Below, piece after piece: positions 7,392 through 33,893 of a DNA stretch of 64,000 nt. The notes beneath the pieces were generated by a model. The model was not told the origin of the DNA and did no database searches. It saw only the letters and a list, made by a program, of their open reading frames with translations. The stretch lies in assembly GCF_044324875.1 (NCBI RefSeq), contig NZ_CP172185.1; one strand, 5' to 3'. The number at the start of each line of letters is the position of its first letter. Within the stretch, counting starts at the first letter, position 1. This stretch comes from Escherichia coli. GTDB taxonomy: Bacteria > Pseudomonadota > Gammaproteobacteria > Enterobacterales > Enterobacteriaceae. Both the position numbers and the translations under genes were made by a program.

Positions 7392-10028
7392 TTAACGACA
7401 TTCAGCTGATAGCTGGGTTAATAACTGCTGCTGACTCTCTGGTGGCAGTTGATAATTGGCGACACAGTGAGCATTTTCCTCTTCTCCCCATTTCACCTGA
7501 ACTTTTCCCGCTAAAGGCATTCCGCTGAGGTAAACCTGACCATTATCCGCAACAATGCCGCTACTCTGGCTACTCTCTGATGTCACCATCGCCCCAAACG
7601 GCAGCGGCTTATTATTGTGGGTTAGCGTCATGAGCAGTTTTATCCCAACGCGCGCTTTAAACTCTGCTCGCACGATCGCCCCACGGGTGGGAACAACGTT
7701 AGCGACCGCGTTATCTAAATCGACGTTATCAGCCAGGGTATTGGTATCCAGCGCTACTCTGTTTTCCCGATACTCAGTGGCATAAGGCAGCACGGCATAA
7801 CCACGCCAGTCGGTACGCACCCCCGTCTGGTTTTCGACTTTTGCATCTTTTGCGCCAGGCGCTTTAACAAGCACCACCGTATCGTTTAACGGCTGCCCCA
7901 GCGTTACGCCATTGGCATGAGCCAGTACCCCACCGCTGACTCCGTAATAGAGCTGCTTAATATCATCGCTATGGCTGTAACCGATATTGGCATTGCCGTA
8001 ACCACCGCGATAATTCAGCGTGGCGTAGCCTGTACTTCCGCTATTACCATCGCCTCCCCCGGCATAGCCGGTTTGCACGCTATAGCTGAGGTTGTTGTCT
8101 TCCAGCAACGTACCGTATACGCCAGCCAGATTGGTCATCCGACCGTTGAGATCGTGTGACATGCTGTAGCTGGCACTGGCATGTCGCCACTGAGATTTAC
8201 TGTCAGAACGCAGCCAGTGGCTGAAAGGAATATTGACGTTAAGCGCTAACATCTGATCCCGTCCTTTTTGCCAGGCGTTTTTCGTCAGGCTATAGCTGAG
8301 CGTCCAGTTGATATCTTCGAATGCAGTATTTAAACCAGCCTGGAATTGCTCATCGACATTACTCGTTCCCCAATAAGTTTGATGGCTACCACTCAAATAC
8401 AGTGTTGATGTGCGCCCGAGTTGCTGAGTAACGGTGAGTTGTAATTTCCCGCGTTTGTTATAAGCGAGATTGTAATAGTCGGTGAATTTCGGCTTAACCT
8501 GAATAACACCATCCTGTGTTTCGATGTTGTAGCCATTCATTCGACTGTATGTTGTATCAGCGAAATTAAAATACCCACTGGTCGAATAACGGTAACCCAC
8601 TAACTGAATATTCGTGCCTGATTCATTGAGCGATTTGTTATAGAGAAAACGCACCGATTGTCCGTCATGCTGACTGTCATCGGGAAGTGTGGAATTAGCC
8701 TGCGTCATATCCACAGACAGAGCGCCCAGTGCCCCCATGTTTTTCCCGATACCGAAATTAAAAGCACGATAACGATCCGCCAGTTGCGTTCCACCATATA
8801 TTGTCCAGCCAGCCGGAAGGCCGTGGAGTAATGTACTCTGGAAAAAGCGGGGTTTTTCCTGCTGCGCATTTCCACTGCGGTATTCTCCTGCCGTAATGGA
8901 ATAACGAGTATGCCCTTCACGTTGCAAAAGCGGGACTGACGAATAGGGTACGGTAAAGATCTGCGTGCTGCCGTCAGCCTCTTTAATCGTTACCTGCAAG
9001 TCACCACTATTACCTGCGGCATAGATATCGTTGATGGTAAAAGGCCCCGGCGGCACCGTACTATTATAAATGTCATACCCATTTTGTTTAATAGTGACCT
9101 GTGCAGTACCACGAGCAATACCGTGGATCACCGGGGCAAATCCTCTTTGGCTATCGGGTAACATATTGTCATCTGAGGCCAATTGTGCGCCGCGAAAGTT
9201 AATACCATCGAAAATATCGCCCTGGGTATAACCATCACCCAGCGTCAGCCGGGAACGTAACGGAATTATGTCTCGCTCAAGCCAGGTATTGATATGCTGC
9301 CATTTATTTTTGCTACCTGATGAACTGTCGCTACTGTTATAACTCCAGGTGGTATTGTCGCGTAAACGCCACGCACCAATATTTAGCCCACTCTGTAGGT
9401 TTAAATAAGCATAATGGCTGTTACTACCAATCCGATTCTGTACACTATTTCCGCTGAAATTATAATTGAGCAATCCGGCATTAATACCGGGATCCCACAA
9501 CTCAGGAGGAATATATCCACGCGCGCGATTACTCATAAATGCCTGAGGGATCGTCAGGTTGAGTCGCTGCTGACCAACATCCAGATGCGCAGTAGCGTCA
9601 TGGATCATTGAGGTTAATGGCACGCAGGCATCATCCGCCAGCAAATTCATACCGGAGACAGAAGCCGTATTCAGCCCCATACCGGCAAGTTGCGCGCGTG
9701 TCAGGCAGGGAACAATCCCTTGTTCACTATCGCCCGTATTAAATGTGACATCACGCGTTGCCATATAACCATTATTCAAATAGATATCGACACGATACGT
9801 CCCTGGCGGTAATTCTTGCCCATTCTCAAAACGCGATAAATCAGCCACAGCCTGGGGATCATCCGCTAAAAAAAGCGGGTTAAAATAGAGTTCGGCAGAT
9901 GACAAAGGTGCCTGTGCGGCAAAAGCACAAGCAATAAAGAACCGGACAAAAAAACCAGCCAAACGATGCTTACGAATATGCAAGCATTGTGTGTTTCGCT
10001 GGTAAAGTCTTAAATTCAGATATGACAT
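7392..10028 (-). CDS. fimD: Type 1 fimbrial outer-membrane usher FimD
   Basis: 878-aa ORF recognised as chaperone-usher pathway usher. Confidence 0.9.
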   Translation of the reverse strand: MSYLNLRLYQRNTQCLHIRKHRLAGFFVRFFIACAFAAQAPLSSAELYFNPLFLADDPQAVADLSRFENGQELPPGTYRVDIYLNNGYMATRDVTFNTGDSEQGIVPCLTRAQLAGMGLNTASVSGMNLLADDACVPLTSMIHDATAHLDVGQQRLNLTIPQAFMSNRARGYIPPELWDPGINAGLLNYNFSGNSVQNRIGSNSHYAYLNLQSGLNIGAWRLRDNTTWSYNSSDSSSGSKNKWQHINTWLERDIIPLRSRLTLGDGYTQGDIFDGINFRGAQLASDDNMLPDSQRGFAPVIHGIARGTAQVTIKQNGYDIYNSTVPPGPFTINDIYAAGNSGDLQVTIKEADGSTQIFTVPYSSVPLLQREGHTRYSITAGEYRSGNAQQEKPRFFQSTLLHGLPAGWTIYGGTQLADRYRAFNFGIGKNMGALGALSVDMTQANSTLPDDSQHDGQSVRFLYNKSLNESGTNIQLVGYRYSTSGYFNFADTTYSRMNGYNIETQDGVIQVKPKFTDYYNLAYNKRGKLQLTVTQQLGRTSTLYLSGSHQTYWGTSNVDEQFQAGLNTAFEDINWTLSYSLTKNAWQKGRDQMLALNVNIPFSHWLRSDSKSQWRHASASYSMSHDLNGRMTNLAGVYGTLLEDNNLSYSVQTGYAGGGDGNSGSTGYATLNYRGGYGNANIGYSHSDDIKQLYYGVSGGVLAHANGVTLGQPLNDTVVLVKAPGAKDAKVENQTGVRTDWRGYAVLPYATEYRENRVALDTNTLADNVDLDNAVANVVPTRGAIVRAEFKARVGIKLLMTLTHNNKPLPFGAMVTSESSQSSGIVADNGQVYLSGMPLAGKVQVKWGEEENAHCVANYQLPPESQQQLLTQLSAECR

Positions 10029-10094
10029 TATTCCTCCGGTTTAAAATCACCCGGCAGTCAATTCTTTCTATTCAGGCGAAAAATTCCCCCTGCG

Positions 10095-10820
10095 TTATTC
10101 CATTACGCCCGTCATTTTGGGGGTAAGTGCGCCATAATCATTTATTGTTCGGTAAGTAATATTGCTTCCTGCATCAGAAGGCAATTTAACCGTGCTTTCG
10201 CCCATTGGAGGCACCAATGCATTTTCAAGAACCCGGGTTCCGGCATTCAACTCTGTTACCGTCAGGTAATAGGGTGTCGGGTTAATCAGCGTCAGAGAAT
10301 TCGCGCTACGACGAAATCTTAATTTTTCTGCGGCCTGATCGGGTGGCAACGCTAATTTAGCCGGGCGATAGTACAGTTTAATGCGGCTGATAATTGCGAG
10401 CTGTAGCGTATTCTCAGTCAATTTTGATTTATCCATTGACGGAATCGCTTTAACGTTCATCCAGAATAAACTTTCCCGATCCTGTGGCAATTGGTTATTT
10501 GTTGCATCAAGAATACGCAAGGTATTCTCTTTTTTTCCCTTCATCGCAAACAGAGGAGGCGTCACGATAAAACGACCATCCTTTACACCATCGGCATTTT
10601 CCACCCATGATTGAATTAAATAGGTGCTATTTTCATCATTATTTGTCACGGCAAGTTGCACTTGTTTTTGCCCTGCCGGATAAATTACGCGAGTCGCACC
10701 TAAGGCCACTCCCGCTTCAGCGCGTCCGGCAACCATCATTGCCATGAACATCAGGATACCTGCCAGCAAGCAGAATGTTATTTCCTGCGATTTCCTTACA
10801 TTGACGTTTTTATTACTCAC
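10095..10820 (-). CDS. fimC: Type 1 fimbrial periplasmic chaperone FimC
   Basis: 241-aa ORF, PapD-like chaperone, recognised as FimC. Confidence 0.9.
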   Translation of the reverse strand: MSNKNVNVRKSQEITFCLLAGILMFMAMMVAGRAEAGVALGATRVIYPAGQKQVQLAVTNNDENSTYLIQSWVENADGVKDGRFIVTPPLFAMKGKKENTLRILDATNNQLPQDRESLFWMNVKAIPSMDKSKLTENTLQLAIISRIKLYYRPAKLALPPDQAAEKLRFRRSANSLTLINPTPYYLTVTELNAGTRVLENALVPPMGESTVKLPSDAGSNITYRTINDYGALTPKMTGVME

Positions 10821-10856
10821 TGTCCTGTTCCTGTTATCACATTATCTGCTGAACAA

Positions 10857-11396
10857 TTACTGATAGGTTAAAGAGAACCAGGCCTGGGCATTGGCGATGC
10901 CGCCAGTAACCCGACGCCCGGTAGCACGATATTTGGCGATGAAATGTAGCGAAGTAGAGCCTGAGTAAAGCCGTTTCCAGTTTGCTGGAGGACGATTAAT
11001 CGGTACGAGGTTTCCTTCATCATCAAATAACGCTACGCCAATATTTGTGGCTATCCCTGGCCCCTCTCCCACGGAAAGCACATCCGGATTTTTACCATCC
11101 GCGACACCGTGAAACGCCACACCCACACGTTCACTCACCACCGTGCTACATTCCCGTAAATGAATAACAAAAGGCACCGGTGCGCTATCTTCCCCTACCG
11201 CATGAAACCGGTTACTGCTGATTTGCCCCATATTGACCGTCATTTGTTTATCACCAGCTTCAACTCGGCAAGTTTCCGCAATAATGACGCCCTGAAATTG
11301 CATATTTCCGCCGGGCAGCGTGGTATTCCATTTATTTCCGGCCAGAGCAAACATTGGCAGCAACGACGCTAATAGAAATAATCTCTTCCTTTTCAT
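10857..11396 (-). CDS. fimI: Fimbrin-like protein FimI
   Basis: ORF 10857-11528; start chosen at [19 protein letters not shown] (179 aa); longer upstream extension possible. Confidence 0.8.
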
Positions 11397-11460
11397 CGTT
11401 ATTTTTATCGCACAAGGGTGGGCATCCCTGCCCGTAATGACGTCCCTGAACCTGGGTAGG

Positions 11461-12009
11461 TTATTGATACTGAACCTTGAAGGTCGCATCCGCATTAGCT
11501 GCGCCAGGGGTTGCGGCACCGGTTGCAAAATAACGCGCCTGGAACGGAATGGTGTTGGTTCCGTTATTCAGGGTTGTTTGTGCACTAAATGTCGCACCGT
11601 CCAGCGCCAGCGCAGCACCCGTTCTGTCCAGGATCTGCACACCAACTTTTGTTGCGCTACCCGCAGCTGAACTCTGCAAAGCTAATACGTTAGGATGAGT
11701 TCCATCAATTGCGGTACCAAGGAAGGCAATAGCAGCTTTATCTGCAACAGTAGTGTCACAATCGTTCAGTTGAATGTTAAAACCGACAGCAGAACTGGTT
11801 GCTCCTTCTTGTGCCAGCGATGCGGTACGAACCTGCCCTAACTGAACGGTTTGATCAGCAGAGCCTGCATCAACTGCGCAAGCGGCGTTAACAACTTCCC
11901 CTTTAAAGTGAACGGTCCCACCATTTACCGTCGTAGTATCAGCCAGAGCCGCTGCGGAACTGAGGGACAGAGCCGACAGAACAACGATTGCCAGAGTTTT
12001 AATTTTCAT
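11461..12009 (-). CDS. fimA: Type 1 fimbrial major subunit FimA
   Basis: Start at [23 protein letters not shown]; 182 aa; recognised as FimA. Confidence 0.9.
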
Positions 12010-12128
12010 GCTGCTTTCCTTTAAAAAAACTATTTCTAAATCGACATGGGCAGTCGTTCTGTACACTTTGTTTTGTCAACGAGTTTGACTGCCAACACTG
12101 CACAGTTTTCCCCCAAAAGATGAAACAT

Positions 12129-12442
12129 TTGGGGCCATTTTGACTCATAGAGGAAAGCATCGCGCACAAACTTTTTCAGTTTATTTGTTGGCTTAATATT
12201 CTATTGTTATCTTTATTTATAGATTTTTATATTGCATGAGGTGGTTTTTGGAGAGAAGAATGAGGAAGATGCGTCGAGCCACAGAAACGTTAGCTTTACA
12301 TTTGGCGGAGGTGATGTGAAATTAATTTACAAGAGAAATAATTTACATATCAAACAGTTAGATGCTTTTTATCGTTTTTTAATATTTTTATGCTTGAGAA
12401 AAAATACGTAACTTATTTATGATATGGACAGTTTGGCCCCAA
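12129..12442. promoter_or_regulatory. fimS: fimS invertible element (fim switch), 314 bp, bounded by 9-bp inverted repeats TTGGGGCCA; appears to be in phase-OFF orientation
   Basis: ttggggcca at 12129-12137 and its inverted copy tggccccaa at 12434-12442; the internal sigma70 promoter reads on the + strand, away from fimA. Confidence 0.8.
12394..12423 (+). promoter_or_regulatory. fimA sigma70 promoter inside fimS (-35 TTGAGA, 18-bp spacer, -10 TATGAT), pointing toward fimE
   Basis: ttgaga at 12394-12399 and tatgat at 12418-12423 on the + strand; fimA is on the - strand at lower coordinates. Confidence 0.7.
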
Positions 12443-17524: not shown

Positions 17525-18511
17525 ATGAACGCAATAATATCGCCCGATTATTACTATGTTCTTACCGTTGCTGGTCAGTCTAATGCCATGGCGTATGGCG
17601 AAGGACTGCCATTACCGGACAGGGAAGATGCGCCTCATCCCAGAATTAAACAATTAGCGAGATTTGCGCATACGCATCCCGGAGGCCCGTCATGTCACTT
17701 TAACGACATTATTCCACTGACTCACTGCCCACACGATGTTCAGGATATGCAGGGTTATCACCATCCTCTGGCAACGAATCATCAAACACAGTACGGCACC
17801 GTTGGCCAGGCACTGCATATTGCACGGAAATTACTGCCCTTCATTCCTGATAATGCAGGGGTTCTCATCGTTCCATGTTGTCGTGGCGGCTCGGCTTTTA
17901 TCGCAGGCAGCGAAGGGACATATTCAGAACGGCACGGAGCCAGCCATGATGCTTGTCGTTGGGGATCGGATACTCCGCTATACCAGGATTTAGTCAGCAG
18001 AACGCGAGCCGCACTGGCAAAAAATCCGCAGAACAAATTCCTCGGCGTATGCTGGATGCAAGGCGAATTTGACTTAATGACCAGTGACTACTCGTCACAC
18101 CCTCAACACTTTAATCATATGGTTGAAGCCTTTCGTAGGGAGCTAAAACAATACCATTCTCAGCTTAATAATATTACTGACGCACCGTGGTTTTGCGGCG
18201 ATACCACCTGGTACTGGAAAGAAAATTTCCCTCATGCGTATGAAGCGATTTATGGCAATTATCAAAATAATGTTTTAGCCAATATTATTTTCGTCGACTT
18301 CCAGCAACAAGGTGAAAGAGGACTGACGAACGCGCCTGATGAAGATCCGGACGATTTAAGCACGGGATATTACGGTTCAGCGTACCGGTCACCGGAGAAC
18401 TGGACGACGGCACTGCGAAGTAGTCATTTCAGCGCGGCAGCCCGTCGGGGAATTATTTCTGACAGGTTTGTAGAAGCAATTTTGCGTTTGTCACATTTTC
18501 ACAAAGAATAG
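17525..18511 (+). CDS. nanS: 9-O-acetyl-N-acetylneuraminate esterase NanS
   Basis: 328-aa ORF recognised as NanS/YjhS; nanCMS synteny. Confidence 0.9.
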   Translation: MNAIISPDYYYVLTVAGQSNAMAYGEGLPLPDREDAPHPRIKQLARFAHTHPGGPSCHFNDIIPLTHCPHDVQDMQGYHHPLATNHQTQYGTVGQALHIARKLLPFIPDNAGVLIVPCCRGGSAFIAGSEGTYSERHGASHDACRWGSDTPLYQDLVSRTRAALAKNPQNKFLGVCWMQGEFDLMTSDYSSHPQHFNHMVEAFRRELKQYHSQLNNITDAPWFCGDTTWYWKENFPHAYEAIYGNYQNNVLANIIFVDFQQQGERGLTNAPDEDPDDLSTGYYGSAYRSPENWTTALRSSHFSAAARRGIISDRFVEAILRLSHFHKE

Positions 18512-18559
18512 TACACGCTATTCCTTGTGCAATCAGGCCAACTCGCAATAAAGGCAGCA

Positions 18560-19255
18560 ACTATGCTTGAAGCCCCTTCCCCGCCGGATAAATAATATCC
18601 TTACGGCAATTGGTAACCGTATAAAAGGCCTGATGTTTTGAACTGCCGTTGACGGAGATGAAGTAATCTGCTTTTTTGGCAGCATCCAATAACGCATCAA
18701 TGGCAACGCGATCATTGTTGAGCTCAATTCATAGCGCCGGATACAATTTCAATAAGGCGTCTTTACCACGTTGCGTGGCATTTTTGTAATACTGTAAAAC
18801 ACCCGCTTTTTCCCGCGGAGATTCCGATACAACGGAGACGTTACGCTTGCTGGTATGGTTTCTGTCGGGAGGGTACTACCGATATCCTTACAAGCGTAGA
18901 GCTGTTCCATCATGCGTGCCAACAACAACATACGGATATCCAACCGTTCCCAGCGACGTAGGAACATCTCGCGAATGTTAATCCAGTACTGTAGTCGGCG
19001 ATCGCTATCACCAGATTCACAATCATAAAGAACCTCTGCAATATCAATAGTATACTTGAGAATTTGTTTCGATTCATTTTTCGTGCACAACATTTCGATA
19101 GCTTCGAGGGCATCATGGTATTCTTTGTGACTGAAGGTCCATGAAAGTAACGTATCGAGAATAATCCCTGTAGTTGCCAAAATGAGTTGATAACTACACA
19201 ATGATTTGTTTGTACAGAAGGAACGATTATTATATGGTCTTGTAGGGCAGAGCAC
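18560..19255 (-). pseudogene. Frameshifted gene remnant of unknown function at the left boundary of the island
   Basis: 168-aa ORF 18749-19255 continues in a different frame to about 18560 (ELNNDRVAIDALLDAAKKADYFISVNGSS...); no intact long ORF; no recognisable domain. Confidence 0.25.
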
Positions 19256-19372
19256 GTTGCTACCGTAACAGCGTTGAAGATAATTTGGTCGAGACTGTAG
19301 TGGACCAGTTTAAAATGTAGCAGAATTTTAAAAGTGTCAGGTGCATAGAATTAAAAAAATGGAACTATAAAA

Positions 19373-21106
19373 ATGGAAATCATGTTACCAAAAAACACCT
19401 TATATGATAGAGAGCAAAATATCTTTTTTGAAAAGGTTACGGCCTTAATTGGAGAAAATGGTGCTGGTAAATCCTCGATTTTACAATCCGTATTTATTAA
19501 CTGTTTAACAAAAAAATATCTACCAGAAACAAAGGTTGTTTGTTTTTCTTCTGGACAAAATGAGAAATACTCAACGTACTTCTCTGATTATCTTTCTCAT
19601 GAAAGGCAAGCAAATAGAGGTCTTAGCTTAGATTGTTGTTATTACGATAAATCATGGTCAAAGTTACTAATATTCATATCCACAATTTGTAAATCAAATG
19701 GTCTTGTTAGAAATTTTTTATGTGAGAAAGGCTATATTGATGTATCAGATGATAAAAATGATGATATATCAAGCAAGCTTACATTGACGGTCCGAGTAAA
19801 TTCGGCTTACGTTAATCGAGTAAAAATGGCATTAGCACAAGAAGAACAAGGTATTGAAAATACTTTAAGGTATTCAGCTTATCATAGGACTTTAGAAAGT
19901 TTCATTAATAATATTGTTAATGCTGATTATGATTTCGAGTCTCCACTTGAAGCTCAAGAGATCTTGCTAACTCATTCAAATTTTTTCAATCCATCATTTG
20001 AGGAAGGAGAAGATTCCTTTTTTGATCCTATCATAACATTTTTCACTCAAGCAGCAGATAATGATTACTTTATAATAAAACCATCATTACAGCTAGAGTT
20101 TAAAAATAATATCGAACTGAATGATATTAGTGATGGGGAATATCAAGTACTCTTTTTATACTCTTTGCTTGATATTTTTGATAGTCCTAATACTTTATTC
20201 TTATTAGATGAGATAGATTCCCATTTACATTACAAGAATATTGAGCTCTTATGGCATCGACTACATAGTATTAATGGTTATGCGATAACAACCACCCATC
20301 TATTAGACTCAATTACAGCTACTGATAATGATTTTAAAAACTTAAAGATTGTTGATAAAGGAAAAATAAAAGAAGATGATAAAATAAAAACTATAATAGA
20401 ACGTTTATCTGTCTTGACAAGAATATCAGACGTACAGTTCGAAGTGTGTCGTAAACTAGAAAACATTGTATTGATGGATGATTATAATGATTGGACTATT
20501 TTTTATGCCTTAGCAAAGAAAAAAGGACTTGATGTATCAAAGTTAGATGGCCTCCATGCAATAAAACAGTCCTCTGGTTACGATAATTTAAATCAAGAGT
20601 TCGCAAAACCAAAAATAGAGTGGATTAATTCGCTTTTAAATGTAAATACTGATAAAAAAGTCAAAAAAATATTCATGATCTGCGACAAAGATGAGGCTCC
20701 AATTACCTATCAGAAAGATGGAGTTCAAGTCAATGGAAGTGAATGTTCAAAACATATAGCGAAGTTAGAAAATAAAAACAAAAATAAAATATATCTCCTT
20801 GTCTGGAAAAGAAGAGAAATAAAAAACTACTTATTATCTTATACGGCATTGTCTCATCATGGATTTATCGGGCAAATAAACAATGGTGATCTGCCGGCTA
20901 ACAGTTATTTAAAAGAAAACGATCCTGGAGATAATTCAGCAATTAGCCGGCTTAACGTAAAACATTGCATCACAAAAATAATTGATTCTGATGGTATAGG
21001 ATTAGATATATCAAAACTTTACTCATATATAGAACTTATACCACCTGCTGAGATCAGTGAAGATATAGTGAATATGTACAATTTTTTGGTGGAGAAATTA
21101 AAATGA
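19373..21106 (+). CDS. OLD-family-like ABC ATPase with C-terminal Toprim-like region (putative nuclease/ATPase component)
   Basis: Walker A GENGAGKSS, ABC-signature-like ISDGEYQ, Walker B LFLLDEIDSHLH, H-loop TTTH; C-terminal DxD-type motif FMICDKDE; about 28% GC. Confidence 0.75.
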   Translation: MEIMLPKNTLYDREQNIFFEKVTALIGENGAGKSSILQSVFINCLTKKYLPETKVVCFSSGQNEKYSTYFSDYLSHERQANRGLSLDCCYYDKSWSKLLIFISTICKSNGLVRNFLCEKGYIDVSDDKNDDISSKLTLTVRVNSAYVNRVKMALAQEEQGIENTLRYSAYHRTLESFINNIVNADYDFESPLEAQEILLTHSNFFNPSFEEGEDSFFDPIITFFTQAADNDYFIIKPSLQLEFKNNIELNDISDGEYQVLFLYSLLDIFDSPNTLFLLDEIDSHLHYKNIELLWHRLHSINGYAITTTHLLDSITATDNDFKNLKIVDKGKIKEDDKIKTIIERLSVLTRISDVQFEVCRKLENIVLMDDYNDWTIFYALAKKKGLDVSKLDGLHAIKQSSGYDNLNQEFAKPKIEWINSLLNVNTDKKVKKIFMICDKDEAPITYQKDGVQVNGSECSKHIAKLENKNKNKIYLLVWKRREIKNYLLSYTALSHHGFIGQINNGDLPANSYLKENDPGDNSAISRLNVKHCITKIIDSDGIGLDISKLYSYIELIPPAEISEDIVNMYNFLVEKLK

Positions 21107-23004
21107 ACACCTCTTTATTTGAAGATCTACTTACACTAATCAAGAAAAAGAGTTCGATAAGAAATACAGAACAAGCAGTAGAGCTAATTTCATTATTTAT
21201 TTTTTTACATTATATAAAATTATATTTTTATGAAAATGATAAAAGATTCTCAGATATAAAAAACATATCAAGCAACAACATTAATGAAATTAAATATTAT
21301 TACCAGCAACTATATGAAAGCTTTATTTTATCGATAGATATAAAAAATATAAACCACGACATGCTTGAAAATCTCAGGAGCAAGATAGGTTTTTTAATTA
21401 ATAACATCAATAACCATGAAATAATCAAATATATAGATTATTCTCTTTCGCATATACATTCACTTACAGAGTTCTATCAATATGCAAATTCTTATCAATC
21501 TTTAATTCTTAGGATGGTTAATGAATCGGGTCGTTCAGGGGAATATGTTACTCCATCTGCTTTAGTTCAGCTCATGGTTGAAATGTTATCACCTACAGAT
21601 GGCACATCAATCTACGACCCAGCATGTGGAACTGGGGGTTTATTAATAGAGTCAGCACGATATATTAAAGGCAACAGTTTAAACAAAAACTTTAATTATT
21701 CCCTTATTGGTAATGACACATCATCATTTGCCTGTCTAATCTCAATTGTTAACCTTTTAATCAATAAAGAATTTAACTTTGAAATAATACTAAAAGATAG
21801 CTTAGATATAAATTATAAGAATAAAAAATATGACTTTGTTTTAACTAACCCACCATTTGGGAAAAAGAGCGGTTGGGATAATATTCATATTGACACACAT
21901 TATAAAGGACCTAATCTAGACTATTACTTCCTGGAGCATGTTATTGACTCTCTCGCTGTTAATGGCAAAGCAGCCATAATATTACCAGAGCGTTTTTTAT
22001 ATGATGTGAGTAAAGAGTGCATCACTCTTAAAGATAAGATCTTCCAAAATTATAATTTAGATTGTATTTTATCTATACCGTCAGGTGCATTGCTTCCTTA
22101 CACTGCAGTAAAATTATGTATTCTTTTTATAAGTAATTCTGGCCCAACAGATAGAATATTTTTCTACAATTTAAATAATGGTAAAAAATACTCACGTACA
22201 AATACTATAAAATTCGATGATTTTATAGATTTTTTAGAGTCAGCAAAAAATAGAACAATAACTGAACACTCCTGGATTATCAATATTAGTGATACACCTT
22301 CATCTTATAACTTACTCTTAAAAGATAAAGAGCGAAACTCATATGAGTTTCTTAGTGATTCTATAGTTAACATTGAACAGACAATACGTAATAATGAATT
22401 GTTACTAACCGAGTTGTCTTTATTAAGAGAAAAAATAGAGATCTTAGAGTCAACAATAAAAAATCATTCGCATGAATATGAATTTGAGAGACTTAAAGTT
22501 GGAAATATTGCATTAGTAAAATCCGGAAATTTATTACAAAAAAATAGACTATTATCCACTGGGCCAATTCCTGTATATGGTGGGAATGGAGTTATTGGAT
22601 ATAATTATGAGGCAATGGAAAATGGTGAAAATATTATTATTGGTAAGGTCGGAGCTCTTTGCGGAAACGTTCGGTATGTTCAAGGTGATATTTGGGTGAC
22701 AAATAACTCATTAATTATTAAGAATTATTTACCAAATAAAGTTTTAACACCCTACCTTGCAAAGTTATTATCTACTTTAAACTTAAGAAAGCTCGCCGTT
22801 GGTACCGCTCAACAATATTTAACCACAACACAAATAAAAAATGTAGAAATTAACATTCCACCTTTAACGACCCAGCATAAATTAAATATGTGGCTTGATG
22901 AGTTAGATAATACCCTTGAACAATATAATAAGCTCATTGAAAAAATAATGAATGATAAGCGAGAACTTAAAGAGAATTTGTATAAAGGTCTTTTAATAGA
23001 ATAG
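21103..23004 (+). CDS. N6-adenine DNA methyltransferase fused to a single HsdS-like target-recognition domain (M-S fusion)
   Basis: Motif I IYDPACGTGGLL, motif IV NPPFG, C-terminal TRD-like region; start ATG overlaps upstream stop (ATGA at 21103-21106); GGAG ribosome-binding site at 21091-21094. Confidence 0.8.
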   Translation: MNTSLFEDLLTLIKKKSSIRNTEQAVELISLFIFLHYIKLYFYENDKRFSDIKNISSNNINEIKYYYQQLYESFILSIDIKNINHDMLENLRSKIGFLINNINNHEIIKYIDYSLSHIHSLTEFYQYANSYQSLILRMVNESGRSGEYVTPSALVQLMVEMLSPTDGTSIYDPACGTGGLLIESARYIKGNSLNKNFNYSLIGNDTSSFACLISIVNLLINKEFNFEIILKDSLDINYKNKKYDFVLTNPPFGKKSGWDNIHIDTHYKGPNLDYYFLEHVIDSLAVNGKAAIILPERFLYDVSKECITLKDKIFQNYNLDCILSIPSGALLPYTAVKLCILFISNSGPTDRIFFYNLNNGKKYSRTNTIKFDDFIDFLESAKNRTITEHSWIINISDTPSSYNLLLKDKERNSYEFLSDSIVNIEQTIRNNELLLTELSLLREKIEILESTIKNHSHEYEFERLKVGNIALVKSGNLLQKNRLLSTGPIPVYGGNGVIGYNYEAMENGENIIIGKVGALCGNVRYVQGDIWVTNNSLIIKNYLPNKVLTPYLAKLLSTLNLRKLAVGTAQQYLTTTQIKNVEINIPPLTTQHKLNMWLDELDNTLEQYNKLIEKIMNDKRELKENLYKGLLIE

Positions 23005-26151: not shown

Positions 26152-27306
26152 TCAAACTCCTAGAAGCTCATATATTAATGCTTGTCTAAGATTAAAATAA
26201 TGTTCTTTTTTATCTCTCAGCACCTTCAATATTTTCTCGAGCGATTCCAATTTTTTTACTAAAATATCTGAGTCAGTAAATAATTTATTATGAATGAAGA
26301 TATCATCAAAAACTCTTACTGTTACTCTTTGCCTACCTGAAGTGCCTTCCATGTGATGAAGAGCATAATGCCTAAATTTCTTTGTTTTGATTATGTAATA
26401 ACCAAGTTTCTTTAGAAAATGATCTTCAAATTTTGATCTCATCACTATAAACTCAGTGGATCCCACAGCTATACTCTCTTCTGCAAGAAAATCAACAAAT
26501 GCTGCCTTACCATTTTCAAAACAAGGTGTGATTCTAGCCAAAAGGATATCATCTTTTCTAAATTTCATACCAGAAGATTTTCCTGACTTAGTTTCTCCTT
26601 TATAGTCTATATATGGAAGTTCAACATCTAAAGATGCCATATCAACATATGGTATTATTTCATCCACTGACCCAATCTTTGGATTAATTAAAAAAGAATC
26701 ACTTAATGAACTCCAGTCATTCTTTTTCCCAGCTGATGTTGTCGCCAGATAAATACCTACTTCAGCATCTATAACATCCTGATATAACTTTCTTACCGAT
26801 AATATAGTTTCATTAAGATGCATATAGCATTCATGGAATTTGTCAAGAATAACTAAGGCACTATTTTGTTTTTCTCTATCGAGAATATTAAATTTAAAGC
26901 TTACAACATCCTTCCATCTAATATGCTTATTAGTTGAACCAATAGTATTTTTTAACGTATGCTCAGCAAAACTTTCAGATTGAAAGATATATGGAAGCAA
27001 TCGACTTTCAAAACCATGATATTGCTTTGGCGTACATACAATAACCTTCTCACCACAATATCCTTCTCTATCAGCTATCGCGACTTTTCTTAACTGCGGA
27101 TTTCTAGTTAGATAAAGTATGTCTCCTGGGCTAAATTTCTTCCCAAAAGTTGGCCCCATATCATCAGGGGCGATTCCGTAGCGAGAGAAAAATATTTCAC
27201 AATTATCAAAGTCTTCTCCTCTTACACAATATTTAACATTAGGATCTAAATTATTCTTCTCCCATATGTTTTTTTCTTTTACTAAGTCAGAAAGAGTAAT
27301 CTTCAT
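26152..27306 (-). CDS. hsdS: Type I restriction-modification specificity subunit (HsdS), two TRDs
   Basis: 384 aa with two TRD-like halves and conserved HsdS segments; overlaps hsdM stop by 4 bp; very AT-rich. Confidence 0.85.
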   Translation of the reverse strand: MKITLSDLVKEKNIWEKNNLDPNVKYCVRGEDFDNCEIFFSRYGIAPDDMGPTFGKKFSPGDILYLTRNPQLRKVAIADREGYCGEKVIVCTPKQYHGFESRLLPYIFQSESFAEHTLKNTIGSTNKHIRWKDVVSFKFNILDREKQNSALVILDKFHECYMHLNETILSVRKLYQDVIDAEVGIYLATTSAGKKNDWSSLSDSFLINPKIGSVDEIIPYVDMASLDVELPYIDYKGETKSGKSSGMKFRKDDILLARITPCFENGKAAFVDFLAEESIAVGSTEFIVMRSKFEDHFLKKLGYYIIKTKKFRHYALHHMEGTSGRQRVTVRVFDDIFIHNKLFTDSDILVKKLESLEKILKVLRDKKEHYFNLRQALIYELLGV

Positions 27307-28766
27307 ATCTTTCCTCCATTAAAAAAGTAAGAAGAGTTCATATTCAATTCTTTTCTAAACGATTGCCATTTACTTATCTCCCTTGAGAGATTTAAATCTT
27401 TAAATTCTTTTTCTATATACACAGGAACATTTAGATTAAAATCGTTATCTTCGACTTCCTCGATAGAGGCTATATACGTAGTAATATTAGAGACATCCTT
27501 CAAACTAATGTAAGAGTTATAGATATTCATTATATTAATATCATTTAAATAAGCATGATTCCTAGTGGTAATAAGTTCATCATAGGCATTTATAAATAAT
27601 ATTTTCCCTTTTAGCTCAGTTCGTTTATTGCAATTCAACAAAATAATACATGCCGGCATAGGTGAATTATAAAACAATCCAGGGCCAAGACTAATTACAC
27701 ATTCAATAATATCTGTTTGAATAATTTTTTCTCTGAGCTGTTTCTCACTTTCTCTGAAGAGAACTCCATTTGGCCAGAGCATAGCTGCGCGACCAGTATC
27801 AGGCTTCAGGCTTTTAATTATATGGGTATAAAACGCATAATCAGCACAGCCCTGCGGTGGTACACCATAAAGATTACGACCATACGGATCAGCGGCAAAC
27901 TTGTCACGATTCCATTTCTTAATGGAGTACGGTGGGTTAGCAAAAATCACATCAAACTGCTTGAGCCGATCGTTTTCAATAAACTTTGGTTCAGCCAGAG
28001 TATCACCGCGCAGCACATCAAATTCTTCAATATCGTGCAGGAACATATTCATACGAGCAATAGCGGAAGTCAGCAGGTTCACTTCCTGGCCATAAAGGTG
28101 CACAGAGCGCCACTCTTCTCCTCTTGCACGAAGATCCATCACTGCATTTAGCAACATCCCTCCAGTGCCACACGTTGGATCATAGGCTGTTTCACCCGGT
28201 TTTAAGCCCATAATGCGCGTCATTAAATGCACGACTGTTCGGTTGGTGTAGAACTCTGCTGCCGTATGACCGGAATCATCAGCGAACTTTTTAATCAGGT
28301 ATTCGTAGGCTTCACCAAGATCATCCTGGGCGACAGATTTAATGCCGAGCGGAATTTTACTGAAATGTTCAATCAGATCAGCCAGCAGATGATCGGGAAG
28401 GCGCTCTTTATTGGTCCACTGTGCATCACCGAAGACGCCATGTAAACGCGGGTTATTGGCTTCAATTAGTCGAAGCGCATTCTGGATCGCTTCACCAATG
28501 TTTTTACTGGTATTGCGTACCTTTTCCCAACTGGCTTCAGAGGGAATATTGAAACGGTGAAACATCGGCATGGCGGCATATTCAGCATCACCTTCATGGA
28601 GTTCCAGCGCTTCGTTATATTCTTCCAGATAGACATCTGACAGGCGTTTGTAAAACAGCAACGGGAAGATATACTGCTTGTAGTCTGATGCGTCAATTTG
28701 GCCACGAAGAAATTCGGCGGCTCCCCAGAGCAGCTCTTCCAGCTTTTTATTACTCATAGTACTCAT
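27303..28766 (-). CDS. hsdM: Type I N6-adenine methyltransferase subunit, paralogue 2 (HsdM)
   Basis: 487 aa; motif I YDPTCGTGGML, motif IV NPPY; start overlaps upstream hsdM stop (ATGA at 28763-28766); 3' third of the gene is markedly AT-rich. Confidence 0.9.
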   Translation of the reverse strand: MSTMSNKKLEELLWGAAEFLRGQIDASDYKQYIFPLLFYKRLSDVYLEEYNEALELHEGDAEYAAMPMFHRFNIPSEASWEKVRNTSKNIGEAIQNALRLIEANNPRLHGVFGDAQWTNKERLPDHLLADLIEHFSKIPLGIKSVAQDDLGEAYEYLIKKFADDSGHTAAEFYTNRTVVHLMTRIMGLKPGETAYDPTCGTGGMLLNAVMDLRARGEEWRSVHLYGQEVNLLTSAIARMNMFLHDIEEFDVLRGDTLAEPKFIENDRLKQFDVIFANPPYSIKKWNRDKFAADPYGRNLYGVPPQGCADYAFYTHIIKSLKPDTGRAAMLWPNGVLFRESEKQLREKIIQTDIIECVISLGPGLFYNSPMPACIILLNCNKRTELKGKILFINAYDELITTRNHAYLNDINIMNIYNSYISLKDVSNITTYIASIEEVEDNDFNLNVPVYIEKEFKDLNLSREISKWQSFRKELNMNSSYFFNGGKI

Positions 28767-30262
28767 ACCTCGAACCCTTCTTTGATAAGCAGGGCCTCCA
28801 GCTCCTCTTCTGCTTTTTCCAGCTCAGCCAGCTTCCGTTGAAAATCTTTGAGCGCTTCTTCCACAGTAATGGTTTCTTCTTCGAGTGGCTTTTGCACATA
28901 ACGAGCAATATTTAGATTGAAGTCATTTTCTTCAATCTCCTTCAGAGGAACCCAGCGTGCAACGCCTTCGATTTCTTTTGCATCTGGCCCTTGTTGCGCC
29001 TGGTCATGATAGATTTGGTATATTTCATCGGCCTGCTTGTTGGACAGCGTATTCTGCGCACGCCCCTTGGTATAGATTTCTTCAGCATTGATGATCAATA
29101 CATGATCTTTATGCGCTGCCGGACGTGATTTACGCAACACCAAAATACACGCAGGAATCCCAGTCCCATAGAACAGGTTGGAAGCAACACCAATAATCGC
29201 CACAATGCGATTCTCTTGCAGTAATTTGGTTCGAATTGCCCCCTCTGCGCCGCCACGAAACAGCACACCATGAGGTAATACGACAGCCATACGTCCATTG
29301 TCGTTAAGTGAAGCAAACATATGCTGCACCCAGGCAAAATCACCATTTGTTTTAGGCGCCAGGCCATATCGCTTACGGCCATAGGGATCGTTCGACCACA
29401 GATCGTATCCCCATTCTTTCAAGCTAAACGGTGGGTTGGCAACAACGCAGTCAAAGGTTTCTAAACGATCGCTTTTTAAAAATTTAGGTTCGCGTAACGT
29501 ATCCCCTCGGACAATATCGAAATCTTCCTGTCCATGCAGGAACAGATTCATACGCGCAATAGCTTCCGTCGTTAAGTTCTTTTCCTGACCCTTGATTTTT
29601 AGTAAACGCGGATCACCACCATTTTCTTTTACATGGTGGATGGTCTCAAGCAGCATACCACCGGTACCACAGGCGGGATCGTAGACACTCTCACCGGCTT
29701 TTGGATCAAGAATGTTAACCATCAAACGAACGATAGTTCGTGGGGTATAGAACTCACCGGCTTTCTTATTGGCTTTGTCTGCAAAGCGTTTGATCAGATA
29801 CTCGTATGCGCGCCCCATATCATCGTCACGGACACTAGAAACGCCAAGGTTCACCTTATTGAAGTGATTGAGTAACGTAGCCAGTAACTCATCAGAAAGG
29901 CGTTCTTTATTGGTCCAGCTGGCATCGCCAAAAATGCCATGCAGTTTAGGGTTTGCCAGTTCTATACCACGGAAGGACTCTTTTAAAGCCTGACCGATGT
30001 CCTTGGTCTCAGCGAAAACATCGCGCCAGTGGCAATTTTCAGGTATCTGAATACGGTGAAACATCTTGCCCTTGGCAAGCTCTGCATCCCCAATGCTCTC
30101 CATCGCATCGGCAAATTCTTCGTCATACACGTCACAAATGCGCTTGAAGAACAGGATGGGGAAAATGTACGTTTTGTAATCTGACGCATCAATGGGCCCT
30201 GTAATAATATGGGCTGCATGCCATAGATGGGCCTCGAGATCTTTTAGGTTAATCAGTGTCAT
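28763..30262 (-). CDS. hsdM: Type I N6-adenine methyltransferase subunit, paralogue 1 (HsdM)
   Basis: Start chosen at MTLINLKDLEAHLW (ATG 30260-30262); GEFYTPRTIV, YDPACGTGGML, NPPF motifs; 499 aa. Confidence 0.9.
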   Translation of the reverse strand: MTLINLKDLEAHLWHAAHIITGPIDASDYKTYIFPILFFKRICDVYDEEFADAMESIGDAELAKGKMFHRIQIPENCHWRDVFAETKDIGQALKESFRGIELANPKLHGIFGDASWTNKERLSDELLATLLNHFNKVNLGVSSVRDDDMGRAYEYLIKRFADKANKKAGEFYTPRTIVRLMVNILDPKAGESVYDPACGTGGMLLETIHHVKENGGDPRLLKIKGQEKNLTTEAIARMNLFLHGQEDFDIVRGDTLREPKFLKSDRLETFDCVVANPPFSLKEWGYDLWSNDPYGRKRYGLAPKTNGDFAWVQHMFASLNDNGRMAVVLPHGVLFRGGAEGAIRTKLLQENRIVAIIGVASNLFYGTGIPACILVLRKSRPAAHKDHVLIINAEEIYTKGRAQNTLSNKQADEIYQIYHDQAQQGPDAKEIEGVARWVPLKEIEENDFNLNIARYVQKPLEEETITVEEALKDFQRKLAELEKAEEELEALLIKEGFEV

Positions 30263-30505
30263 TGTTGTCTCTTTTCGATCCTGCAGTGCTTGAACTCTCA
30301 GCAACTCATGGATTTCACAGTAAAAAAGCAAGTAAAGCGATTCCACAACCACCTGAGCGTTCAATATGTATGACGCCTTTACCCAAGTTGCTTAAATCAA
30401 GGAAATTGCCTGAGATAATACTCTGGCATCAGAATGATACCAAGTTGAAGGGCTGATTTCCGCATCAATACCTTGTGGTAATAGGGGATTACTCTTTTAC
30501 CCTTA

Positions 30506-31156
30506 TTGGCGCAAAATGGCGGCATTTCCTCATTTCTCCTTCGGAGCATCTTACGCGCTATAACCACTCTCGTTTTTTCCTATTCCCATGCAGATGAAGC
30601 ACTACGCAATGAACTTGAGAAGCATCTCTCCCCGCTGAAGCGAACCGGGAAGATCACAACATGGCACGATCGCCGCATCGTTCCTGGTCAGGAGTTCGAA
30701 CGTCAGATCGACCACTATTTTTCGCAAGCAGATATCATCCTGATCCTGATCAGCAGTGACTTTATTGCTTCTGATTACTGCTATCAGGTAGAGATGAAAA
30801 ACGCACTGGAACGGCATGACCGGGGCGAGGCGGTGGTCATTCCGGTAATTTTAAGAAACTGTGCATGGCATCAGTTAGAATTCGGCAGCATTATGGCGGC
30901 GACTATCGACGGTAAACCCATCACTAAGTTTGCCACCCACGATGAAGGCTACGTTCAGGTCGTCGAGGCTGTCTCGCGTGCCATTGCCCGGATGGAAGCC
31001 AAAAAACCACAGCAAACCATACATATCCCTTCACCGGCTCCGGCGAATCCGATCTTTCAGGGAGTAGATTCCGTTTTTACACCGTGTTCAAGCAACCTTA
31101 TTCTATCTGTTATAGCCAGGATAATGTTGTTCGAAACAGTATTAACGAAACTCTAA
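30506..31156 (+). CDS. TIR-domain protein (ThsB-like, single-domain); start codon uncertain (TTG)
   Basis: LVFSYSHADE...ADIILILISSDFIASDYCYQVEMKNAL matches bacterial TIR core motifs; no in-frame ATG upstream of the TIR beta-strand, and no clear ribosome-binding site. Confidence 0.6.
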   Translation: MAQNGGISSFLLRSILRAITTLVFSYSHADEALRNELEKHLSPLKRTGKITTWHDRRIVPGQEFERQIDHYFSQADIILILISSDFIASDYCYQVEMKNALERHDRGEAVVIPVILRNCAWHQLEFGSIMAATIDGKPITKFATHDEGYVQVVEAVSRAIARMEAKKPQQTIHIPSPAPANPIFQGVDSVFTPCSSNLILSVIARIMLFETVLTKL

Positions 31157-32231
31157 GCCTTGCTGATAACAGCCAGACTCTTGGTTTTCGTGCTCTGATG
31201 GGAGGCTTCAGTCGTGGAACTTCACGAGACGAACTATTGACCAATGAAGGTATGTCGGAACATCTCTGGGAAATGTTCTTCGGGCTAATCAAGCAAAGAA
31301 TGTCCCGATAATTTGCCATATCACAGTCGGGCATACTGCCCGATTTTTGTGCTGTCATTATTGGCAATATCTCAATAGGCGTTGAGAAATGGTGCAATTT
31401 AATCTTGCCAGAGCGCTGTTACTTGGGGACGAAATTAATGGGCTCCTGCTGTAGTTACATCAACGCCTGTCTATACAAAAACAGGCGTAGCAAATTCATG
31501 CAGGCAAATACGTTTTCTTAAGCGGCACCAATAGCTTAGTCTCTATATCCACTTGCTCATAGTTTTCCACTAACGCGCGTACCAAATCATCCAGCGTCCA
31601 TAGCGTCAACGGGATTGTAGAACGATCGGCCTCATAACGCGCATCCTTGCTGAATCCGCCGGTACTAACATACAGCCCGCGATCGTCTTTATGGCGGCCA
31701 CCGATAAAGCTACGGATTTGCTGGCTGCTCATCTGTTCCCGCCGGTGCTTCACCTCAACAATAATGCGCGGATTTTCAAACCCAAATCCGTCAGGGGAAG
31801 CAATGATATCTTTCCCACGGTCAGCACCCGCAGGCGATACCTGAGTTTTATATCCCATGCTACGTAATACGCCAGCGACCAGATTCTGCATCTCATCCCA
31901 GTCGAGACGGTTGATACGATCCTTGATGCCTTCAAAAGCAATCATTTCCATGTCGCGCAGAGGATTAGAAACAACCTCATCCTCTTCACCTGAAACAGGT
32001 ACTTCCGGCACGACATCTGAGACAGGCTTTTTGCCCTGCACTAATTCATTCACGGCAAAATCAGGCACCTGAAAAACTGTCAGCGTTGAGCCAAGGGTGT
32101 TTCTGGTTGCATCACTCAGACTATCGCGCTTAATCTCTTCCGTATTCCACTTCACTTTACGGGCGATGCCCATGCCATCTTCAAGCCACTCGGCATGAAA
32201 CTCAAAATCTGAGGCAATTTTCCCTATTAAA

Positions 32232-33515
<1,284 letters not shown>

Positions 33516-33893
33516 TCCGATTAGAAGGTGAATAAGTGATAGCCCAATCGCCTTTCTGCATTTCATTCACAAAGCGCCAAACCTGAGAAGCACCAGAGCG
33601 AACTGTGCCTGGCTTAGTCTGTGGCTCAAGCTCCTGATACCGGATAAACAACTGCTCTCTTGAGCATCCAGGTTTCACATAGGGAGCGAGCTGCGACCAA
33701 CCAATTGCAACAACCTGTTTGTCTCTGAAGTCGTCGTACAATTTTCCGCCATCACCGCGGATCATCCACATCTTAGTCGCCACAATAATTCCTTCTGAAA
33801 ATACTTCATCGTTATACCGGGACGTGATCATTCCATTCAGCCACCTTATCCAGGGGAAAAACACCGATAAGATGGCTAATCAAAATGTCTGTT

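What the first reader, a model, noticed from the sequence alone, without database searches (positions are those of the whole stretch)
18512..19372. Frameshifted gene remnant between nanS and the island
A 168-aa ORF (18749-19255) continues in another frame to about 18560, indicating a decayed gene. It sits exactly where the conserved backbone ends and the AT-rich island begins, so it may mark the ancestral recombination joint or be a relic of a previous island occupant.
Basis: seen in the sequence. Interest (0 to 1): 0.3.

Follow-up and report, generated by a model that had tools for sequence, protein, structure and literature searches.

The report
Dead dpdD fragment beside nanS
This stretch is the broken last quarter of dpdD, a gene of the Dpd (7-deazaguanine) DNA-modification defence system, left at the outer edge of the E. 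coli leuX defence island when the rest of that system was lost; it is an ordinary gene fossil that nevertheless shows which system once sat there.

Summary
A 168-aa ORF lies at 19255..18749 on the minus strand, and the reading continues in other frames.

The stretch is the 3' 28% of dpdD (window 19168..18533, minus strand). It matches the last ~212 positions of three independent DpdD profiles: NCBIfam NF041061 (E 2.5e-37), a PADLOC DpdD model (E 4.8e-67) and Pfam PF28109.

The gene is dead. About 504 codons are missing from the 5' end, and the rest carries three 1-bp deletions and one TGA nonsense codon. One deletion is absent from some E. coli copies, so decay continued inside E. coli.

Both ends are illegitimate joints:
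- **Left joint:** the dpdD terminator hairpin (18501-18528) is fused into the last codons of nanS and supplies its stop codon.
- **Right joint:** a 30-bp filler joins the fragment to a truncated leader of an ATPase/methylase/type I restriction module shared with Salmonella and Klebsiella.

102 of 5426 complete E. coli genomes carry the fragment, always with that module. At least three others carry an intact dpd island at leuX, and the two whose far flank was read have it in the same orientation as the fragment, ending dpdD-hairpin-queD.

The finding is ordinary and of low interest.

The parts
17525..18511 (+). nanS (sialate O-acetylesterase) with a chimeric 3' end. The last residues are ...EAILRLSHFHKE instead of the usual ...EAILQFWRER, giving 328 aa instead of 326.
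   Evidence: Similarity to ordinary E. coli nanS stops at about 18485-18489.
18486..18500 (.). Joint 1: about 15 bp of unassigned origin between the nanS backbone and the dpd-derived DNA.
   Evidence: Backbone alignment ends at about 18485 and alignment to the dpdD flank of L002 starts at 18501. There is no convincing match to a queD 3' end (7 of 21 positions by eye).
18501..18528 (-). Hairpin ACAAAGAATAG-TACAC-GCTATTCCTTGT, the stem-loop that follows the dpdD stop codon in dpd islands. It now contains the nanS stop codon TAG (18509-18511).
   Evidence: Fold energy is -12.9 kcal/mol, z -4.45. The homologous hairpin in L002 folds at -22.3 kcal/mol. The same AAGGAATAGC...GCTATTCCTT motif lies directly after the intact dpdD of E. 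coli AST205 and, one base different in the right arm (GCTATTCTTT), of 2273-PO3.
18533..19168 (-). dpdD remnant: the last 212 codons plus the stop (ancestral stop TGA at 18535-18533). It corresponds to residues 505-716 of a 716-aa DpdD, and the 5' ~504 codons are missing.
   Evidence: tblastn places full-length DpdD proteins in three frames, with nothing to the right of 19168. DNA identity to the Enterobacter-type remnant L002 is 74-75% with only three 1-bp gaps. Profile hits are, and a gap-free protein alignment is.
18780..18786 (-). Lesion 1: a 1-bp deletion somewhere in this 7-bp stretch around an A run. This is the frameshift that ends the in-frame part of the 168-aa ORF.
   Evidence: Present in all E. 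coli copies examined.
18729..18731 (-). Lesion 2: nonsense codon TGA where the relative L002 has TCA (Ser).
   Evidence: Invariant among the E. coli copies aligned.
18574..18575 (-). Lesion 3: a 1-bp deletion (GGG-GC versus GGGAGC). It is absent from E. coli copies L021 and L022, which keep the A, so it arose within E. coli.
18547..18548 (-). Lesion 4: a 1-bp deletion 4 codons before the ancestral stop codon.
19169..19198 (.). Joint 2: a 30-bp filler that is an imperfect palindrome (TGTAGTTGCCAA aatgag TTGATAACTACA). It lies between the end of dpdD similarity and the start of similarity to the ATPase module. Its origin is unknown.
19199..19372 (+). Truncated leader of the AT-rich ATPase/methylase module. 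It is homologous to the same module in Salmonella enterica and Klebsiella aerogenes, where the shared leader runs about 400 bp further left.
18749..19255 (-). Codons 1-19 come from the module leader, 20-29 from the filler, 30-157 from dpdD in frame, and 158-168 from dpdD out of frame. It has a GTG start with no obvious ribosome-binding site.
   Evidence: The ORF is broken or shortened in other strains.

Best explanation
Window 18501-19168 is a non-functional relic of a Dpd (7-deazaguanine DNA modification/restriction) island. That island once occupied the leuX-nanS interval of the E. coli chromosome.

In intact enterobacterial dpd islands, dpdD is the last gene of the restriction operon. It is followed by a stem-loop and often by a convergent queD. 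Here only the outermost piece survives: the last 212 codons of dpdD and its stem-loop.

Two illegitimate recombination or deletion events trimmed it:
- **On the nanS side**, everything beyond the stem-loop was removed together with the last ~7 codons of nanS. nanS now reads into the hairpin and takes its stop codon from it.
- **On the leuX side**, the cut runs from inside dpdD (codon ~504) into the leader of an ATPase + methylase/specificity-fusion + type I restriction module. This removed all other dpd genes.

The fragment has since drifted as non-coding DNA, gaining three 1-bp deletions and a nonsense codon, at least one of them inside E. coli.

It encodes nothing useful. The only part likely to still act is the hairpin, as the 3' end of nanS.

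**Shown:** identity as dpdD, the truncation point, the lesions, the two joints, and intact islands at the same locus and in the same orientation in other E. coli. **Inferred:** that a complete, working dpd island was present in this lineage, the order of the two events, and any terminator role for the hairpin.
For: **Identity as dpdD.**
- NCBIfam DpdD equivalog NF041061 matches profile positions 496-697 of 704, E 2.5e-37.
- PADLOC DpdD PDLC02826 matches positions 515-727 of 729, E 4.8e-67.
- Pfam PF28109 DpdD is on record for the ORF product.
- 215 library proteins match at E <= 0.001 and most of the 150 listed are 640-790 aa; every one of those long proteins matches through its C-terminal ~200 residues.
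- The protein alignment is gap-free.

**Truncation and lesions.**
- tblastn finds DpdD residues 505-716 in three frames and nothing to the right of 19168.
- Three 1-bp deletions and TCA>TGA are seen against a 75%-identical relative.

**Neutral drift.**
- Among 7 E. coli copies there are 3 indel sites in the 636-bp remnant and none in 961 bp of nanS.
- Variable sites by codon position are 8/4/8 in the remnant against 7/9/24 in nanS.
- The deletion at ~18574 is absent from two copies.

**Joints.**
- nanS similarity to ordinary E. coli ends at about 18485-18489.
- Similarity to the dpdD flank runs to 18501.
- Module similarity to Salmonella and Klebsiella begins at 19199. Their shared leader extends ~400 bp further, and they carry no dpdD.

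**Same locus.**
- leuX lies at 39361-39445 next to ahr.
- E. coli AST205 has ahr, leuX, integrase, dpdA, dpdB, dpdE-K, dpdD, then convergent queD, then fim. This is the relic's orientation.
- The same hairpin follows dpdD there.
- 47 complete E. coli genomes match a dpdD query; the 12 rows listed are annotated dpdD, and three were read and hold an intact 723-aa gene.
- The Dpd island of S. Montevideo is at leuX (PMC5699537).
- dpdD is the terminal gene in the closest intact clusters.

**Linkage.** All 102 E. coli genomes with the fragment hold it full-length together with the module, and no genome has the module without it.
Against: - No intact dpdD of the same lineage was found. The best full-length matches are only 51% identical (E. 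coli) and 46% (Leclercia). The closest relative (72% aa, 75% nt) is itself a truncated remnant. The parent island is therefore inferred, not observed.
- No other dpd gene or fragment is present in the 21-kb island.
- No leuX direct repeat survives at the nanS end.
- The hairpin has no U-tract on either strand in this copy, so its terminator role is uncertain.
- The lesion analysis rests on 10 of the more than 100 copies.
Confidence: 0.88

Rival explanations
1. Dead on arrival. The dpdD piece was already truncated and inactive in a donor island. It entered E. coli only as passenger DNA at the end of the ATPase/type I restriction island, so no working Dpd system ever existed in this E. coli lineage.
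For: - The fragment and the module are strictly linked in E. coli, 102 of 102.
- Related truncated dpdD remnants travel in islands of Enterobacter, Salmonella, Citrobacter and E. coli.
- Three of the four point lesions and the 5' truncation are shared by every copy examined.
- The relic is only 51% identical to the dpdD of present-day E. coli dpd islands.
Against: - The module in Salmonella and Klebsiella has no dpdD next to it and has a longer leader, so joint 2 is not an ancestral feature of the module.
- Joint 1 fuses dpd-flank DNA directly into E. coli nanS (97% identical to other E. coli up to the break), so dpd-derived DNA was joined to the chromosome in Escherichia or a very close relative.
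- Decay demonstrably continued in E. coli.
- None of this excludes that the gene was already broken when it arrived.
Confidence: 0.3
2. A genuine short gene. The 168-aa ORF, or a stand-alone DpdD C-terminal domain, is expressed and has a function of its own.
For: - The ORF is open in many E. coli assemblies; the 168-aa product cluster has 71 member sequences.
- The related Enterobacter-type fragment keeps an unbroken 250-aa ORF in several genera.
Against: - The first 29 codons are module leader and filler, and the last 11 codons are out of frame.
- It has a GTG start with no visible Shine-Dalgarno sequence.
- Other strains break it with private indels, and PGAP calls different short ORFs or none.
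- There is no third-position bias in its variable sites.
- Homologues are 700-760 aa long.
Confidence: 0.03
3. Sequencing or assembly artefact. The frameshifts are homopolymer errors in an otherwise intact short gene.
For: One deletion lies in an A run (18780-18786) and one next to a G run (about 18574).
Against: - The same lesions occur in independent complete genomes and in short-read assemblies from unrelated samples.
- The 5' truncation and the nonsense codon cannot be homopolymer errors.
Confidence: 0.01

Closest known systems
dpdD of intact E. coli dpd islands at leuX (for example WP_000332369.1 in strains AST205 and B771, and WP_182289235.1 in O15:H12 strain 2273-PO3)
   Same: - The chromosomal interval matches (ahr-leuX ... 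fim/nan), and so does the orientation.
- dpdD is the last gene of the cluster.
- The same AAGGAATAGC...GCTATTCCTT hairpin lies right after the stop codon (one base different in 2273-PO3).
- The C-terminal 211-212 residues align without gaps.
   Different: - Identity is only 51% at the amino-acid level, with no match to the fragment query in distant-mode blastn and only weak (64-69%) pairwise DNA alignments, so this is a different dpdD lineage.
- Those genes are intact (723 aa) and sit with dpdA, dpdB, dpdE-K and queD. The relic is 212 codons long, broken four times, and alone.
Enterobacter-type dpdD remnant next to queD (P0003/P0158, for example MCK7456280.1; also fragments in E. coli, Salmonella and Citrobacter koseri)
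   Same: - It is the closest relative, at 72% aa and 75% nt identity.
- It is also a 5'-truncated C-terminal piece of dpdD, followed by the same hairpin.
   Different: - It was truncated independently (DpdD similarity starts at residue ~459 rather than 505).
- Its 250-aa frame is unbroken.
- It is still followed by queD.
- It lies in a different island (integrase, Fic, GNAT, relaxase fragment) at a different chromosomal locus, the one that holds an intact dpd cluster in Leclercia.
Dpd restriction-modification island of Salmonella enterica serovar Montevideo
   Same: - It is inserted at leuX.
- DpdD belongs to the dpdD-dpdK set required for the restriction phenotype, and preQ0 genes such as queD are often embedded in the cluster (PMC5699537; PMC10164549; PMC12235509).
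   Different: That island is a complete ~20-kb working system. I could not retrieve its sequence here, so identity to the relic was not measured.

Membership tests
DpdD protein family (NCBIfam NF041061, Pfam PF28109, PADLOC DpdD) | Significant sequence match to the family profile | tested here: met
   NCBIfam gives E 2.5e-37 (129 bits) over profile positions 496-697 of 704. PADLOC PDLC02826 gives E 4.8e-67 over positions 515-727 of 729. PF28109 is on record for the ORF product.
DpdD protein family (NCBIfam NF041061, Pfam PF28109, PADLOC DpdD) | Whole-protein score above the curated equivalog cut-off (300 bits), that is, a full-length protein of ~700-760 aa | tested here: not met
   The score is 129 bits against a cut-off of 300. 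Only the last ~212 of ~716 residues are present, and no DpdD similarity lies to the right of 19168 in any frame.
DpdD protein family (NCBIfam NF041061, Pfam PF28109, PADLOC DpdD) | Uninterrupted reading frame | tested here: not met
   There are three 1-bp deletions and one TGA nonsense codon.
Dpd 7-deazaguanine restriction-modification system | Presence of the signature gene dpdA, with dpdB/dpdC and the dpdE-K restriction genes in the same cluster | tested here: not met
   No dpd family hit came from the eight to nine larger unassigned ORFs of the 21-kb island that were scanned, apart from a negligible helicase-motif match of the Mokosh MkoC protein to DpdJ. The island holds other defence genes instead.
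Dpd 7-deazaguanine restriction-modification system | Island architecture: dpdD as terminal gene, followed by a stem-loop and (often) a convergent queD, at the leuX hotspot | tested here: inconclusive
   The terminal position, orientation, hairpin and leuX locus match intact E. coli islands. queD is absent here, and the site where it would lie is fused to nanS.
Dpd 7-deazaguanine restriction-modification system | dPreQ0/dADG present in genomic DNA and restriction of unmodified DNA | not testable with these tools
   This needs LC-MS of DNA nucleosides and transformation assays. Absence is predicted because dpdA-C are missing.

The most novel reading that the evidence does not exclude
C-terminal DpdD fragments are retained repeatedly at island edges: here, and independently as an unbroken 250-aa ORF beside queD in Enterobacter, Salmonella, Citrobacter and E. 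coli. The most novel reading not excluded is that a stand-alone DpdD C-terminal domain has a selected role of its own, for example as a decoy or regulator towards incoming Dpd systems. On that reading the 168-aa ORF here would be a still-expressed, degenerating version of such a gene.
Probability: 0.03. Interest if true: 0.5.

Novelty: new member of a known kind. Interest (0 to 1): 0.18.

Why it matters
The practical value is modest.

- **Annotation.** An 860-bp stretch that RefSeq leaves unannotated, or calls 'hypothetical protein', in about 2% of complete E. coli genomes can now be labelled a dpdD pseudogene.
- **Island history.** It shows to the base pair how one defence system (Dpd) was replaced by others (an ATPase/methylase pair, type I restriction, Mokosh and more) at the leuX hotspot. 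The replacement went through illegitimate deletions rather than site-specific excision.
- **Side effect on a core gene.** The event clipped nanS and gave it a new C-terminal tail and stop codon.
- **Use as a marker.** The fragment is a convenient lineage marker for this island variant.

It does not reveal a new mechanism.

Tried and rejected
- **Pfam-A scan.** The local Pfam-A copy gave nothing for the ORF, the tail or the merged translation. The DpdD family PF28109 gave no hit there although it is on record for this ORF's product; NCBIfam and PADLOC found the match.
- **Word-indexed protein search.** It found only near-identical fragments and one truncated relative. The exhaustive search was needed to reach full-length DpdD proteins.
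- **Genome-collection scan.** The patterns used returned a single locus, Leclercia adecarboxylata at 45% identity, so no close intact parent was found.
- **A queD tail at joint 1.** I looked for a surviving queD 3' end in 18486-18500, but similarity to the L002 queD end is at chance level.
- **A leuX direct repeat (att site).** None was found near nanS.
- **Rfam.** No RNA family matched in 18300-19500 at E <= 1.
- **Solved structures.** No structure related to DpdD by sequence exists.
- **Literature.** The original PNAS paper on the dpd island (PMC4801273) is not held. A search for 'DpdD' alone returned mostly unrelated acronyms.
- **Alternative readings.** Programmed frameshifting is rejected because there are three shifts, a nonsense codon and a 5' truncation. 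Sequencing error is rejected because the lesions are shared by independent assemblies.

Full report
**1. The observation**

The minus strand holds a 168-aa ORF at 19255..18749 with a GTG start. Translating the other two minus-strand frames shows protein-like sequence continuing past its stop codon down to about 18560. The identical RefSeq genome (E. coli EcPF15) annotates nothing between nanS and the next gene.

**2. What the sequence is**

I merged the frames and scanned the result against protein family libraries.
- NCBIfam gave one hit, the DpdD equivalog model NF041061, at profile positions 496-697 of 704, E 2.5e-37.
- A repaired translation hit PADLOC's DpdD models, the best at E 4.8e-67 over positions 515-727 of 729.
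- The precomputed Pfam family for the ORF product is PF28109, DpdD.
- An exhaustive search of 1.84 billion representative proteins found 215 relatives at E <= 0.001. Most of the 150 listed are 640-790 aa, and every one of those long proteins matches through its C-terminal ~200 residues.
- The repaired fragment aligns without a single gap to the last 212 residues of full-length DpdD proteins.

[quoted passage not shown] Its own biochemical role is unknown (PMC10164549; PMC5699537). No solved structure is related to it by sequence.

**3. Anatomy of the relic**

tblastn with full-length DpdD proteins places the 716-aa protein P0004 in three frames:

| P0004 residues | Window coordinates |
|---|---|
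| 505-633 | 19168..18782 |
| 627-706 | 18803..18564 |
| 701-712 | 18582..18547 |

Nothing to the right of 19168 matches residues 1-504 in any frame.

The closest relative at the DNA level is locus L002, at 75% identity over 671 bp. Alignment to it shows exactly three 1-bp gaps in the window copy, near 18780-18786, 18574 and 18547. It also shows a TGA at 18731-18729 where L002 has TCA. The ancestral stop codon lies at 18535-18533.

- codons 1-19 lie in the leader of the neighbouring module;
- codons 20-29 lie in a 30-bp filler;
- codons 30-157 are dpdD in frame;
- codons 158-168 are dpdD read out of frame.

**4. The left joint, with nanS**

3235 of 5426 complete E. coli genomes match the nanS end of the query. 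All but 102 of them stop matching at about 18489. A direct alignment with an ordinary genome ends at about 18485. Similarity to the dpdD flank of L002 runs leftwards to 18501. The 15 bp in between could not be assigned to either source.

Window 18501-18528 is a hairpin with a fold energy of -12.9 kcal/mol and z -4.45. The homologous, perfect hairpin in L002 folds at -22.3 kcal/mol. The same AAGGAATAGC...GCTATTCCTT motif lies directly after the stop codon of intact dpdD genes in two other E. coli strains, one of them differing by one base in the right arm.

The nanS stop codon TAG (18509-18511) lies in the left arm of this hairpin. NanS here ends ...EAILRLSHFHKE instead of the usual ...EAILQFWRER. 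The event that made this joint therefore cut about 7 codons into nanS and was not a site-specific integration. No copy of the leuX 3' end is present at this end of the island.

**5. The right joint, with the AT-rich module**

The next genes are an AAA ATPase (19373-21106) and a methylase/specificity fusion (21103-23004), followed by type I restriction genes. They form a module that also occurs in Salmonella enterica and Klebsiella aerogenes, with 88% amino-acid identity for the ATPase.

DNA similarity to those copies begins at window 19199, at 84% identity. The Salmonella and Klebsiella copies share a leader with each other that runs about 400 bp further left. Neither has any dpdD sequence.

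The 30 bp between 19168 and 19199 form an imperfect palindrome of unknown origin. Both partners of this joint are therefore truncated, which is the signature of a deletion or of illegitimate recombination.

**6. Distribution and drift**

102 of 5426 complete E. coli genomes carry the 861-bp stretch. All hold it full-length at 98-100% identity. The same number, 102, carry it together with the module, and none has the module alone.

I aligned ten copies: the window, six RefSeq genomes and three read-archive assemblies.
- The truncation, two of the deletions and the nonsense codon are shared by all.
- Two copies keep the base that is missing at about 18574, so that deletion arose inside E. coli.
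- Two other copies carry private indels within the remnant: a T insertion near 19033 and a deletion at 18677.

Among seven copies, variable sites fall 8/4/8 on codon positions 1/2/3 in the relic, against 7/9/24 in nanS. There are three indel sites in the 636-bp remnant and none in 961 bp of nanS. The numbers are small, but they agree with drift without selection for coding.

**7. Why it is a relic of an earlier occupant**

- The tRNA-Leu(CAA) gene leuX lies at 39361-39445 next to ahr. The interval 18512-39360 is therefore the leuX island, and the relic sits at its far end.
- The Dpd island of Salmonella Montevideo is inserted at leuX (PMC5699537).
- A dpdD query matched 47 complete E. coli genomes, and the 12 rows listed are annotated dpdD. 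Three of these were read and hold an intact 723-aa dpdD.
- In strain AST205 the order is ahr, leuX, integrase, dpdA, dpdB, dpdE-K, dpdD, then convergent queD, then further island DNA and fim. Strain B771 has the same dpdD-queD end. This is the same locus and the same orientation as the relic, which is transcribed towards nanS.
- In the closest intact clusters from other genera, dpdD is also the last gene.

The surviving piece is exactly what would remain if a deletion starting inside the island removed everything except its outer edge.

**8. Limits**

- The relic is not derived from the dpd islands now seen in E. coli. It is 51% identical to their DpdD and 46% identical to the Leclercia protein.
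- Its nearest relative (72% aa) is itself a truncated fragment. That fragment was cut independently at residue ~459 and lies beside queD in Enterobacter, Salmonella, Citrobacter and some E. coli.
- A complete parent island in this lineage is therefore inferred, not seen.
- I cannot tell whether dpdD was already dead when it was joined to nanS.
- No other dpd gene survives in the island.

**9. How it 'works'**

It most likely does nothing as a gene. The hairpin may still end the nanS transcript, but it lacks a U-tract here. No Rfam family matches the stretch.

**10. Verdict**

It is an unannotated dpdD pseudogene that marks the replacement of a Dpd island by other defence genes at the leuX hotspot. 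It is an ordinary kind of object and of low interest beyond annotation and island history.

Noticed in passing
window 17525-18511: NanS in this lineage has a chimeric C-terminus (...EAILRLSHFHKE, 328 aa) because the island joint removed its last ~7 codons. All six other RefSeq genomes read annotate a nanS of the same 987-bp length next to the fragment. Whether enzyme activity is affected is unknown.
   Followed up: partly
window 19169-19198: The 30 bp between the dpdD fragment and the ATPase-module leader form an imperfect palindrome (TGTAGTTGCCAA / TTGATAACTACA, 6-nt spacer) that fills the gap exactly. The origin is unknown.
   Followed up: no
window 18499-18510 and 19119-19130: A perfect 12-nt inverted repeat (TCACAAAGAATA / TATTCTTTGTGA) lies 608 nt apart. 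One arm encodes the new NanS tail HKE-stop and the other encodes SHKEY inside the dpdD fragment. By my rough estimate about 0.04 such pairs are expected by chance in 1.2 kb. It may still be coincidence.
   Followed up: no
window 31496-33864: A PADLOC candidate defence gene (PDC-S02) appears to be split by an IS110-family transposase (32340-33320). The N-terminal part lies at 33418-33864 and the C-terminal part at 31496-32173.
   Followed up: partly
window 33894-37409: A 1171-aa helicase/PLD protein matches the Mokosh MkoC model end to end (1688 bits). An RNase H-like ORF (37735-38112) and an HNH protein (38181-38960) lie between it and leuX. No integrase is left next to leuX.
   Followed up: partly
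window 30506-31156: A ThsB-like TIR protein of 216 aa matches only positions 2-177 of a 319-position model. The gene at the corresponding position in Salmonella, a TIR-domain gene, is 327 aa. The window copy is probably truncated.
   Followed up: no
window 27303-30364: Two tandem hsdM-like methylase genes (487 and 533 aa) lie upstream of hsdS and hsdR. The same arrangement occurs in the Salmonella and Klebsiella copies of the module.
   Followed up: no
L014-L017 (Enterobacter) 10001-11151, compared with L010 (Leclercia-type) 10001-12151: This looks like a second, independent case of Dpd decay. A 250-aa dpdD fragment plus queD sits in Enterobacter near the same neighbours (abhydrolase, MFS_3, DoxX, amidohydrolase) that flank an intact dpd cluster in a Leclercia-type genome.
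   Followed up: partly
L031 (E. coli AST205) 35593-36723: In this strain, which carries an intact dpd island, an IS1 abuts a 5'-truncated fimB and nanCMS is missing. The leuX-fim interval can therefore also lose the nan genes.
   Followed up: no
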